Source of the DNA: a virus
Taxonomy: Duplodnaviria > Heunggongvirae > Uroviricota > Caudoviricetes
DNA: 8,584 nt
IMG/VR virus record: IMGVR_UViG_2698536348_000014
Reading direction: 5' to 3' (one strand)
How positions within the stretch are numbered: the stretch's first letter is position 1; every line of letters begins with the position of its first letter. Position numbers and translations under genes: made by a program. The notes under the pieces were generated by a model, which ran no database searches, was not told where the DNA came from, and worked only from the letters and a program-made list of their open reading frames with translations. Positions 5,561-6,873 of this stretch are shown here, piece after piece.

Positions 5561-6232
5561 TCAGCGACCAATCACCACAACCTGACCACCGTCCCCTTCG
5601 TCTGCCGTGCTGATCTCCTGAGAAACCACGCGTGACCCCACGCGCATTTCCCCGTACAGAACAGGCAGAACATTGCCCTGGGCAACCATGTTATCCAGTG
5701 AGGAGAAATAGGTGTTCTGCTTACCGTTATCCGTTGTCTGTGTACGGGGAGTTCTGGCTTTCGGTGCCAGCATCTGCGCCACACCACCGAGCACCATACT
5801 GGCACCGAGAGAAAACAGGATGCCGGTCATACCACCGGCCCCAATGGCTGCCCCCCATGCTGCAAGGGTGGCTCCGGCGGTAAAGAATGATCCGGCAATG
5901 GCTGCAGCCCCCAGGACAATCTGGAATACGCCACCTGACTTGGCCCCGGCGACTCTGGGAACAATATGAATCACAGCGCCATCAGGCAGAGTCTCATGTA
6001 ACTGCGCCGTTAACCCGGACGCGCTGACGTCCCGCCCGGCAATCCGTACCTGATACCAGCCGTCGCTCAGTTTCTGACGAAACGCCGGGAGCTGTGTGGC
6101 CAGTGCGCGGATGGCTTCAGCCCCCGTTTTCACACGAAGGTCGATGCGGCGGCCAAATCGTTGCAAATCCCCGTAAAGGCAGATGCGTGCCATTCCCGGT
6201 GACGCCAGAGGGAGTGTGTGCGTCGCTGCCAT
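5561..6232 (-). CDS. I: Lambda-like tail assembly protein I, 223 aa: N-terminal ubiquitin-like (beta-grasp) domain with a Gly-Gly at residues 100-101, then a Gly/Ala-rich hydrophobic C-terminal region
   Basis: Translation MAATHTLPLASPGMARICLYGDLQRFGRRIDLRVKTGAEAIRALATQLP... matches my recollection of lambda gpI. Same length as lambda gpI (223 aa). ATG at 6230-6232. Confidence 0.9.
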   Translation of the reverse strand: MAATHTLPLASPGMARICLYGDLQRFGRRIDLRVKTGAEAIRALATQLPAFRQKLSDGWYQVRIAGRDVSASGLTAQLHETLPDGAVIHIVPRVAGAKSGGVFQIVLGAAAIAGSFFTAGATLAAWGAAIGAGGMTGILFSLGASMVLGGVAQMLAPKARTPRTQTTDNGKQNTYFSSLDNMVAQGNVLPVLYGEMRVGSRVVSQEISTADEGDGGQVVVIGR

Positions 6233-6873
6233 TTGTCGGTATACCTCTCCCGTTTACTCAGTTGTTCAGGAATATGGTGCAGCAGCTCGCCGTCACCACA
6301 GTAAATAGCGGCGTGATTCGGCACCGATGAACCAAAACAGCACAGCAGCACATCGCCCGGCTGCGCCGCTGACAACGGCACCTGATACAGCCCTGTGGCC
6401 TCCAGATTATCCAGATAGAGATTCTGACCGTTACGCCACCAGTCATCCTCACGCACAAAATCCGGCATCTCAATCTCCGCCAGATGATAAGCATCCCGGA
6501 ACAGTGTGTAACAGTCCGTCACACCGTGCTCAAAGCGCCGCCCGGTGAGATGCGGCACACAGCGGAACTTATGAATCTCACCCCAGCAGACCAGCCACCA
6601 CGGCAAATCACTCTGCACCTGCAGCCGCCGGTCGGCCTCACTCAGCCAGGGCAGACCACCGGGGTGGCTGTGGACCAGCGCCACAATCTCCCCCTGCATT
6701 TCTGCCTGCAGCCAGTCTTCCGGCGACATACGGAAATACGCCTCCGGCTCACCGGAGATATTCACGCAGGGGAAATATCTTTCCCCCTCCGGCGTGCTTA
6801 CCACGAAGCCGCACGACTCCGCTGGCGCACATCGCCGGGCGTGCGCCAGAATCGCTGATTCTGTCTGTGTCAT
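6130..6873 (-). CDS. K: Lambda-like tail assembly protein K, JAB/MPN (JAMM) metallopeptidase domain plus NlpC/P60 domain. 247 aa from the upstream ATG; the classical lambda annotation corresponds to an internal ATG at 6728-6730 giving 199 aa.
   Basis: JAMM motif HSHx7SxxD (H68, H70, S78, D81 in 247-aa numbering) with an upstream E19 in the ESCG motif. NlpC/P60-like Cys (VTDCYTLF, C121) and His (VPNHAAIY, H187). The 3' end overlaps I by 103 nt in a different frame, as in lambda. Confidence 0.85.
   Translation of the reverse strand: MTQTESAILAHARRCAPAESCGFVVSTPEGERYFPCVNISGEPEAYFRMSPEDWLQAEMQGEIVALVHSHPGGLPWLSEADRRLQVQSDLPWWLVCWGEIHKFRCVPHLTGRRFEHGVTDCYTLFRDAYHLAEIEMPDFVREDDWWRNGQNLYLDNLEATGLYQVPLSAAQPGDVLLCCFGSSVPNHAAIYCGDGELLHHIPEQLSKRERYTDKWQRRTHSLWRHREWHASAFTGICNDLAAASTFV

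What the first reader, a model, noticed from the sequence alone, without database searches (positions are those of the whole stretch)
5561..6873. Ubiquitin-like / JAB peptidase pair in the tail-tip assembly genes I and K
I has an N-terminal ubiquitin-like region ending in a Gly-Gly (residues 100-101, nt 5930-5935), followed by a Gly/Ala-rich hydrophobic segment. K, immediately upstream, combines a JAB domain with an NlpC/P60 peptidase. This is the arrangement described by Iyer, Burroughs and Aravind (2006) as a prokaryotic ubiquitin-like system in phage tail assembly. It is established rather than novel, but it is the most system-like content in the window, and both genes appear intact here despite the damaged J.
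Basis: established knowledge. Interest (0 to 1): 0.45.

Follow-up and report, generated by a model that had tools for sequence, protein, structure and literature searches.

The report
Lambda-type tail-tip genes I and K
These are near-identical copies of phage lambda's tail-tip genes K (a double protease) and I (a tail plug protein made with a removable ubiquitin-like tag), intact in a prophage whose receptor-binding gene J is broken by an insertion sequence; the pairing is real but already described.

Summary
On the minus strand, 5561-6232 encodes a 223-aa protein 221/223 identical to lambda gpI. 6130-6873 encodes a 247-aa protein 239/247 identical to the long lambda K reading frame. Pfam, structure prediction and fold search confirm a MoaD/SAMP1-type beta-grasp (ubiquitin-like) domain in I residues 14-97. 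They also confirm a JAB/JAMM domain with a complete E...HSH...SxxD motif plus an NlpC/P60 domain (Cys121/His187/His199) in K. Gly100-Gly101 lies at nt 5930-5935 as stated, followed by a 55-residue uncharged Gly/Ala-rich segment. The Iyer-Burroughs-Aravind (2006) citation is accurate. Later cryo-EM, mass spectrometry, an F-pyocin preprint and a 2025 conference report indicate that K removes the ubiquitin-like domain of I during tip assembly.

One refinement: the Gly-Gly is not the family's conserved feature. It occurs in 24 of 61 diverse homologues. The conserved end of the ubiquitin-like domain is Pro92-x-Val-x-Gly96-Ala97, which aligns with the terminal Gly-Gly of MoaD/CysO. The cut is therefore more likely at 96-98 than after 101.

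J is cut by an IS66-family element, so this prophage probably cannot make infectious particles. Known biology; low interest.

The parts
5561..6232 (-). Gene I (tail tip assembly / plug protein), 223 aa
   Evidence: ORF. 221/223 identical to lambda gpI. Full-length match to chain I of lambda tail structures 8IYK/8IYL/8K35/8XCG.
5942..6193 (-). Ubiquitin-like beta-grasp domain of I (residues 14-97)
   Evidence: Pfam Lambda_tail_I covers residues 14-97. AF2 pLDDT is 94-98 with strands 14-19, 29-33, 60-64, 87-92 and helices 37-47, 49-57. Foldseek hits are SAMP1, CysO, MoaD, Urm1 and ubiquitin.
5942..5947 (-). Gly96-Ala97, the family-conserved C-terminal end of the Ubl domain (motif P92-x-V-x-G96-[A/S]97); inferred position of the scissile region
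   Evidence: P92 in 60/61, G96 in 59/61, small residue at 97 in 58/61. The profile alignment places 'PRVAG-A' on the terminal 'PxVAG-G' of MoaD/CysO-type proteins 1v8c and 4n6e_B. The Pfam model ends at residue 97.
5930..5935 (-).
   Evidence: Codons GGT GGC read from the sequence. G100 is present in only 24/61 homologues, G101 in 51/61, and 26/61 have no Gly-Gly in this stretch.
5765..5929 (-). Gly/Ala-rich hydrophobic segment of I (residues 102-156), two predicted helices
   Evidence: 45% Gly+Ala and no charged residues, with Kyte-Doolittle peaks at about 110-115 and 139-147. AF2 helices at 100-129 and 136-155. Called H1/H2, predicted transmembrane, in PMC11101478.
5564..5764 (-). C-terminal structural part of I (residues 157-223), which forms the trimeric plug inside the tail tip
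   Evidence: Residues 134/135-223 are resolved as a trimer in lambda virions (PMC10721106; PMC12617516). PDB 9E7M chains cover residues 133-222.
6130..6873 (-). Gene K (tail tip assembly protein), long 247-aa form
   Evidence: ORF. 239/247 identical to the lambda long frame. Most homologues are 245-247 aa. Residues 8-22 are conserved across homologues of 68-97% identity.
6559..6867 (-). JAB/JAMM metalloprotease domain of K (residues 3-105); Glu19 at nt 6817-6819; His68-Ser-His70...Ser78-x-x-Asp81 at nt 6631-6672
   Evidence: Pfam Prok-JAB 52.8 bits. E19 is invariant; H68, H70, S78 and D81 are in at least 90% of 28 homologues. Foldseek hits JAMM1 (5ld9/5lda), Rpn11, CSN5 and AMSH. PDB 2kks at E 2.6e-6.
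6202..6543 (-). NlpC/P60 (C40) cysteine peptidase domain of K (residues 111-224); Cys121 at nt 6511-6513, His187 at 6313-6315, His199 at 6277-6279
   Evidence: Pfam NLPC_P60 46.7 bits. C121, H187 and H199 are invariant in 28 homologues. Foldseek hits 4hpe and 9ubf.
6130..6232 (-). 103-nt overlap of the 3' end of K with the 5' end of I (I is in the -1 frame of K)
   Evidence: Coordinates, frame arithmetic. The same overlap is in lambda. Overlaps of 58-64 nt occur in nine of the eleven divergent loci (L004-L006, L008-L013).
2402..5500 (-). Context: gene J truncated by an insertion. J-derived sequence runs to about nt 2459; the last 18 codons read into the insertion sequence.
   Evidence: The alignment to lambda J stops at residue 986 of 1132. 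IS66-family genes lie at 38-1576, 1625-1972 and 1969-2373. They are annotated as ISEc22 in related genomes.

Best explanation
The region holds the lambda-type tail-tip assembly genes K and I.

I is made as a precursor with three parts: an N-terminal MoaD/SAMP1-like ubiquitin-like domain (residues 14-97), two hydrophobic helices (about 100-155), and a C-terminal part that becomes the trimeric plug inside the tail tip.

K is a non-structural assembly factor with a JAMM/JAB zinc metalloprotease domain and an NlpC/P60 cysteine peptidase domain.

Proposed mechanism:
1. The ubiquitin-like domain keeps the membrane-active precursor soluble. It blocks premature docking of the tape measure and tube until I has joined J and L (inferred).
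2. The JAB domain of K recognises the beta-grasp and cuts the peptide bond at the end of its extended tail. From family conservation and homology to MoaD/CysO, this is most likely at Gly96-Ala97 or Ala97-Lys98 rather than after Gly101 (inferred).
3. The C-terminal fragment stays in the tail. K and the ubiquitin-like domain leave.

In this particular prophage the pair is intact. J lacks its receptor-binding end, so the system probably cannot yield infectious particles.
For: Shown here:
- Near-identity to lambda gpI and gpK.
- Pfam domains above their cut-offs.
- Beta-grasp fold of I, with best matches SAMP1, CysO and MoaD.
- JAMM and NlpC/P60 folds of K.
- A complete JAMM motif and a Cys-His-His triad, conserved in 28 homologues.
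- K(JAB+NlpC/P60) lies directly upstream of I in 11 of 11 divergent IMG/VR loci, one with a frameshifted K. Pfam confirmed both K domains in the four K ORFs scanned.

From papers:
- Iyer et al. 2006 predicted that JAB releases the Ubl at its C-terminal glycine (PMC1779556).
- Only residues from about 101 or 134 onward of gpI are seen in lambda tails.
- gpK is absent from virions by mass spectrometry.
- The single gpI peptide detected gave 9.87% coverage. That can only be the 22-residue C-terminal tryptic peptide (computed).
- In F-pyocin, the N-terminus of the gpI homologue PA0640 is present in stalled tips and absent from mature particles. Deleting the gpK homologue PA0639 abolishes tips.
- A conference report states that Davidson's group showed gpK cleaves the Ubl domain off gpI only after gpI has joined the tip complex (PMC12908700).

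Cut site:
- G96 is present in 59/61 homologues, a small residue at 97 in 58/61, and Gly-Gly at 100-101 in 24/61.
- The profile alignment puts G96-A97 on the terminal Gly-Gly of MoaD-type proteins.
- The tail from Pro92 to Ala97 has the same length as in MoaD (the MoaD comparison rests on my own knowledge).
- Ge and Wang state that residue 101 onward is resolved in the closed tail. That could not be so if the cut were after Gly101.
Against: - No peer-reviewed biochemical demonstration was found in the library. The direct claim rests on a conference summary.
- The cryo-EM papers call the N-terminus 'unresolved', not 'cleaved'. One speculates that it could be a cell-wall enzyme.
- The cut site is unmapped. 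My placement at 96-98 is inference from conservation and from one sentence in a paper.
- Which K domain cuts has not been established.
- PA0640 expressed alone in E. coli loses its N-terminus to unknown host proteases, so a dedicated protease is not strictly required for removal.
- The chaperone or steric-shield role of the Ubl is inferred.
- In this window K carries Glu133 where all 27 other aligned homologues have Gly, plus a private R97W. Activity of this allele is untested.
Confidence: 0.8

Rival explanations
1. Same system, but the cut is exactly after the Gly100-Gly101 pair. On this view, the short Ala-Lys-Ser spacer is part of the released ubiquitin-like piece.
For: - Canonical JAMM substrates end in Gly-Gly (established knowledge).
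- G101 is fairly conserved, in 51/61 homologues.
- The resolved part of gpI is reported to start at about residue 101, close to this site.
Against: - G100 is present in only 24/61 homologues, and 26/61 have no Gly-Gly after the Ubl at all.
- G96 followed by a small residue at 97 is near-invariant and aligns with the MoaD/CysO terminal Gly-Gly.
- If residue 101 is really modelled in the mature tail, the cut must lie N-terminal to it.
- A nine-residue tail after strand 5 would be unusually long for a JAMM substrate (inference).
Confidence: 0.3
2. The ubiquitin-like domain is not removed. It stays attached but disordered in the tail lumen or tip. K acts as a chaperone or has another substrate.
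For: The cryo-EM papers describe the N-terminal domain only as unresolved.
Against: - Only the C-terminal tryptic peptide of gpI was detected, although the Ubl contains several good tryptic peptides.
- The F-pyocin homologue loses its N-terminus on maturation.
- A conference report describes cleavage by gpK.
- The JAMM catalytic residues are conserved.
- Three 100-residue domains would have to share the lumen with the tape measure protein (inference).
Confidence: 0.07
3. The Ubl is removed, but not by the JAB domain. The cut is made instead by the NlpC/P60 cysteine peptidase domain of K or by a host protease, and JAB serves only as a ubiquitin-like-binding module.
For: - The NlpC/P60 triad is invariant.
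- PA0640 alone is trimmed by host proteases in E. coli.
Against: - The JAMM motif is complete and conserved, including the Zn ligands and the catalytic Glu.
- JAMM enzymes are the known proteases for SAMP/MoaD-type tails. The best structural match of K includes JAMM1 bound to SAMP2.
- The conference report attributes the activity to the protein with 'a deubiquitinating domain'.
Confidence: 0.1
4. The main role of the JAB domain of K is counter-defence. On this view it strips host Bil-type ubiquitin-like proteins from the central tail fibre J, rather than processing I.
For: Hor et al. speculated exactly this for tail assembly proteins with deubiquitinase domains (bioRxiv 10.1101/2023.09.04.556158).
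Against: - The JAB-bearing K was paired with a Ubl-bearing I in all 11 phage loci sampled. The pairing also holds in lambda itself, where K is essential for tail assembly in hosts without Bil (established knowledge).
- Nothing in this window bears on Bil.
Confidence: 0.04

Closest known systems
Phage lambda gpI (tail tip assembly protein I; PDB 8IYK/8IYL/8K35/8XCG/9E7M) and gpK
   Same: I is 99% identical and K is 97% identical. The gene order M-L-K-I-J is the same, as are the 103-nt K/I overlap and all catalytic and motif residues.
   Different: I has T71A and I164T. K has eight substitutions, including Glu133 at a position that is Gly in all other aligned homologues, and a private R97W. The neighbouring J is interrupted by an IS66-family element.
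TAPK-TAPI-TAPJ neighbourhood of Iyer, Burroughs and Aravind 2006 (PMC1779556)
   Same: The architecture is exactly the one described: a Ubl domain, a Gly-rich linker and a TAPI-C domain in I, and JAB plus NlpC/P60 in K.
   Different: None in kind. The paper stresses a single conserved C-terminal glycine. That corresponds to Gly96 here, not to the Gly-Gly at 100-101.
F-pyocin PA0640 (tip plug) and PA0639 (gpK homologue) of Pseudomonas aeruginosa
   Same: The plug protein has an N-terminal region that is present in immature tips and removed in mature particles. The K homologue is essential and absent from particles. The Ubl profile built here hits two solved 'putative (phage) tail assembly protein' chains, 9l9p_A and 25vf_9. 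I did not establish whether either of them is PA0640.
   Different: It is a tailocin, not a phage, and is only distantly related in sequence. Its protease has not been assigned experimentally.
Archaeal SAMP1/SAMP2 with the JAMM desampylase (HvJAMM1, PfJAMM1); bacterial CysO with Mec-type JAMM protease; MoaD
   Same: The best structural matches of the I Ubl are SAMP1, CysO and MoaD. The best matches of the K JAB include PfJAMM1 with SAMP2. There is also a weak NCBIfam hit to 'desampylase'. In all of these a JAMM enzyme cuts at the end of a beta-grasp tail.
   Different: No E1-like activating enzyme is present and no conjugation occurs. The Ubl is made already fused to its partner by a normal peptide bond, and it ends in Gly-Ala rather than Gly-Gly.
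Bil (bacterial ISG15-like) anti-phage system
   Same: A ubiquitin-like protein and a JAB-type deubiquitinase act on the siphophage tail tip.
   Different: It is host-encoded and needs E1 and E2. It conjugates the Ubl to J to block assembly. Here the Ubl is phage-encoded, is part of I, and promotes assembly.

Membership tests
Lambda_tail_I / TAPI (Pfam PF06805) | Match to the family profile above the curated cut-off | tested here: met
   98.5 bits against a cut-off of 23.8, residues 14-97.
Lambda_tail_I / TAPI (Pfam PF06805) | N-terminal ThiS/MoaD-like beta-grasp fold | tested here: met
   AF2 pLDDT 94-98 over residues 14-92. Foldseek hits SAMP1, CysO, MoaD and Urm1 with target TM-scores of 0.68-0.77. 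Weak profile hits to MoaD/ThiS chains at E 0.16-1.6.
Lambda_tail_I / TAPI (Pfam PF06805) | [quoted passage not shown] | tested here: met
   Gly96 is present in the window protein and in 59/61 diverse homologues. The Gly-Gly at 100-101 is not the conserved element, being present in 24/61.
Lambda_tail_I / TAPI (Pfam PF06805) | Glycine-rich hydrophobic linker followed by the TAPI-C structural domain | tested here: met
   Residues 102-156 are 45% Gly+Ala and uncharged. The C-terminal part is identical to the resolved part of gpI apart from I164T.
Lambda_tail_I / TAPI (Pfam PF06805) | Gene lies between K (JAB+NlpC/P60) and J | tested here: met
   Window order L-K-I-J. The order K-I is the same in 11 of 11 divergent loci.
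JAB/JAMM (MPN+) metalloproteases | Motif E-x(n)-H-[ST]-H-x7-S-x-x-D | tested here: met
   Glu19 and His68-Ser-His70-PGGLPWL-Ser78-Glu-Ala-Asp81, read from the translation. The motif is conserved in homologues.
JAB/JAMM (MPN+) metalloproteases | Profile match and JAB fold | tested here: met
   Prok-JAB 52.8 bits against a cut-off of 25. Foldseek hits 5ld9/5lda (target TM-score 0.60), Rpn11, CSN5 and AMSH.
JAB/JAMM (MPN+) metalloproteases | Zinc-dependent cleavage at the C-terminus of a ubiquitin-like domain | not testable with these tools
   Only a conference report describes gpK cleaving gpI.
NlpC/P60 (MEROPS C40) peptidases | Profile match, papain-like fold and a Cys-His-His/polar triad | tested here: met
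   NLPC_P60 46.7 bits against a cut-off of 23. Cys121, His187 and His199 are invariant. Foldseek hits 4hpe and 9ubf (target TM-score 0.57).
NlpC/P60 (MEROPS C40) peptidases | Peptidoglycan or peptide hydrolase activity and substrate | not testable with these tools
   The substrate is unknown. gpK is absent from virions, so a role in cell-wall penetration is unlikely (inference).
Ubiquitin-like conjugation systems (E1/E2-dependent: Bil, CBASS Cap2/Cap3, SAMP) | An E1-like adenylating enzyme, with or without an E2, encoded alongside the Ubl and the JAB | tested here: not met
   All nine substantial ORFs of the window are accounted for as H, M, L, K, I, J and three IS66-family genes. None is ThiF/E1 or UBC-like. 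This is a processing pair, not a conjugation system.

The most novel reading that the evidence does not exclude
The NlpC/P60 half of K is an active cysteine peptidase with a protein substrate inside the producing cell, not a cell-wall enzyme. On this view it makes a second, still unassigned cut in tail-tip maturation. One candidate is trimming the linker of I. Another is a part in the unexplained processing of the tape measure protein H. K would then be a two-protease maturation factor. The argument is that its Cys-His-His triad is invariant across homologues, yet K is absent from virions. It therefore cannot act on the cell wall of the next host.
Probability: 0.12. Interest if true: 0.5.

Novelty: already known. 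Interest (0 to 1): 0.13.

Why it matters
The I/K pair is a clear bacterial-virus example of a ubiquitin-like domain paired with a dedicated JAMM protease and used as an assembly checkpoint. It is relevant to the origin of ubiquitin signalling and to engineering of phage tails and tailocins.

This window adds no new biology. It is lambda's own gene pair at 97-99% identity, in a prophage disabled by an insertion in J.

Two practical points come out of it:
- The conserved Gly96-Ala97, rather than the eye-catching Gly-Gly, should be the first target when mapping or mutating the cut site.
- Common annotations clip the very domains that define the system. Lambda K is annotated as 199 aa, and I is annotated as 190 aa in the RefSeq genome examined.

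Tried and rejected
1. Programmed -1 frameshift making a K-I fusion. I lies in the -1 frame of K with a 103-nt overlap, and K-I fusion ORFs exist in databases. However, the only X XXY YYZ heptamer in the K frame is at codon 34, far upstream of where the I frame opens at about codon 207. Rejected. The fusions are most simply explained by single-base indels.

2. The second Gly-Gly (132-133), just before the residues resolved in two virion structures, as the cut site. It lies in a lambda-specific insertion that is a gap in most homologues. Rejected as a family feature.

3. A search of IMG/VR with the diverse alignment failed because no conserved stretch was available. Two single-protein scans found no relatives. 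A third gave 11 loci, so the neighbourhood sample is small and drawn from one subfamily.

4. NCBIfam has no model for I.

5. A sequence-only search of solved structures with K found one JAB-like chain (2kks) and only weak NlpC/P60 hits. The fold search was needed to confirm the NlpC/P60 fold.

7. I could not read PDB coordinates to verify which residue of gpI is the first one modelled.

Full report
WHAT IS THERE

The minus strand of the window carries a lambda-type tail module:
- the end of H (7903-8577)
- M (7577-7906)
- L (6879-7577)
- K (6130-6873, 247 aa)
- I (5561-6232, 223 aa)
- J (5500 down to about 2459)
- an IS66-family element with tnpA at 1969-2373, tnpB at 1625-1972 and the transposase at 38-1576

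The 1.6 kb around K and I is 97.8% identical to lambda itself. I is 221/223 identical to lambda gpI. K is 239/247 identical to the 247-codon lambda K frame.

The whole window matches prophages of human and bovine E. coli at up to 99% identity. In 144 genomes the match covers at least 80% of the window.

J homology ends at lambda residue 986 of 1132, so the receptor-binding end is separated from the gene.

CHECK OF THE OBSERVATION

Every factual element holds.
- Gly100-Gly101 of I is encoded at nt 5935-5930.
- Residues 102-156 are 45% Gly+Ala with no charged residue. They are predicted to form two helices.
- K lies immediately upstream and overlaps I by 103 nt.
- Pfam gives Lambda_tail_I for I, and Prok-JAB plus NLPC_P60 for K, all well above the curated cut-offs.
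- Both genes are full length.

Test on I. I built an alignment of 61 homologues of 30-65% identity, drawn from a library of 50%-identity cluster representatives with 3201 hits at E up to 0.001.
- The AlphaFold2 model of I has pLDDT 94-98 over residues 14-92.
- Its strand and helix order is that of a beta-grasp.
- The best matches among solved structures are SAMP1, CysO, MoaD, Urm1 and ubiquitin, with target TM-scores of 0.68-0.77 and rmsd of 2.5-3.8 Å.

Test on K. The model of K has pLDDT 80 and pTM 0.75.
- It matches JAMM deubiquitinases: P. furiosus JAMM1 alone and bound to SAMP2, Rpn11, CSN5 and AMSH.
- It also matches NlpC/P60 hydrolases.

The JAMM motif is complete: Glu19, His68-Ser-His70, seven residues, then Ser78-x-x-Asp81. 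The NlpC/P60 residues Cys121, His187 and His199 are invariant in 28 homologues. Neither refutation condition is met.

REFINEMENT: WHICH GLYCINE MARKS THE END OF THE DOMAIN

Conservation across the 61 diverse homologues:

| Position | Present in |
|---|---|
| Pro92 | 60/61 |
| Gly96 | 59/61 |
| small residue at 97 (Ala 47, Ser 9, Gly 2) | 58/61 |
| Gly100 | 24/61 |
| Gly101 | 51/61 |
| no Gly-Gly anywhere after the domain | 26/61 |

- The Pfam model ends at residue 97.
- A profile of the domain aligns 'P-R-V-A-G96-A97' with the terminal 'P-x-V-A-G-G' of the MoaD/CysO-type chains 1v8c and 4n6e_B. These hits are weak, at E 0.16-0.33.
[quoted passage not shown] That fits Gly96.
- Ge and Wang state that gpI is resolved 'from position 101 onward' in the closed tail. 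If so, the cut lies before residue 101.

I therefore infer that the scissile bond is at 96-98, not after Gly101. This is inference, not measurement.

HOW IT MOST LIKELY WORKS

Iyer et al. predicted that the JAB domain of K releases the Ubl of I. Later work fits this.
- Lambda tails contain a trimer of the C-terminal part of gpI that plugs the tip and holds the end of the tape measure protein.
- gpK is not in virions.
- The one gpI peptide found by mass spectrometry gave 9.87% coverage. That can only be the 22-residue C-terminal tryptic peptide.
- In F-pyocin, the N-terminus of the gpI homologue is present in stalled tips and gone from mature particles. Loss of the gpK homologue abolishes tips.

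The role of the Ubl as a solubility tag or steric shield is inferred.

The function of the NlpC/P60 domain remains unassigned. Because K is not in particles, a role in cell-wall penetration is unlikely.

CONSERVATION OF THE PAIR

In 11 of 11 IMG/VR loci holding I homologues of 39-100% identity to a distant family member, a 246-279 aa K gene lies directly upstream of I. One locus has a frameshifted K, and nine of the loci show a 58-64 nt K/I overlap. Pfam confirmed JAB and NlpC/P60 domains in the four K ORFs scanned, and the Lambda_tail_I domain in three of the four I ORFs (the fourth scored just below the cut-off). The sample is small and comes from one subfamily.

NOVELTY AND SCORE

This is lambda's own, long-described gene pair at 97-99% identity, in a prophage that has lost a functional J. 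No E1 or E2 is present, so it is a processing pair and not a conjugation system. It is already known, and interest is low.

The modest additions are the placement of the conserved domain end at Gly96-Ala97 and the annotation notes listed below.

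Noticed in passing
window 1-2460 and 2402-5500 (-): J is interrupted at lambda-equivalent residue 986 of 1132 by an IS66-family element, annotated ISEc22 in related genomes. Compared with the nearest genome (L002, NZ_CP074998), the window also lacks a further 67 J codons (201 nt) next to the end of the insertion sequence. This looks like an adjacent deletion.
   Followed up: partly
window 6730-6873 (K codons 1-48); L001 5831-5974: Lambda K is conventionally annotated as 199 aa starting at Met49. That start would remove Glu19 and the first strands of the JAB domain.
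   Followed up: partly
L002 8762-9433 (-), equivalent to window 5561-6232: In a RefSeq genome with the identical I ORF, the annotation starts I at Val34 (190 aa). That removes the first two strands of the ubiquitin-like domain. Database clusters of 210 aa, apparently starting at Met14, also exist. The true start (Met1 or Met14) is not settled by anything done here.
   Followed up: partly
window 6130-6232: K and I overlap by 103 nt, with I in the -1 frame of K. No slippery heptamer lies where the I frame is open. K/I overlaps of 58-64 nt recur in divergent phage loci (L004-L006, L008-L013). K-I fusion ORFs occur in databases (P0133, P0153, P0198, phrog_28576) and probably arise from indels.
   Followed up: yes
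window 6475-6477 (K Glu133) and 6583-6585 (K Trp97): K has Glu at position 133, where all 27 other aligned homologues have Gly. This change is shared with the related E. coli lineage in L002. K also has a private Arg97-to-Trp change. Neither residue is catalytic, and the effect on activity is unknown.
   Followed up: partly
window 6879-7577 (-), gene L: The L protein keeps the C-terminal cysteine cluster (CTWTYRGDECGY...CSKCLSGC). In lambda gpL this cluster binds a 4Fe-4S centre on the outside of the tip. The lambda cryo-EM paper states that the function of that cluster is still unknown.
   Followed up: no
window 6130-6873 (-) and 5561-6232 (-): The JAB domain of K gives a weak, below-cut-off NCBIfam hit to the haloarchaeal 'desampylase'. 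The best structural match of the I Ubl domain is the archaeal modifier SAMP1. Both halves of the pair therefore point to the same archaeal system as their nearest characterised relative.
   Followed up: partly
window 2372-4570 (+): A 732-codon open frame runs antisense to J. It has no family match attempted and is most likely a mechanical by-product of the codon composition of J rather than a gene.
   Followed up: no
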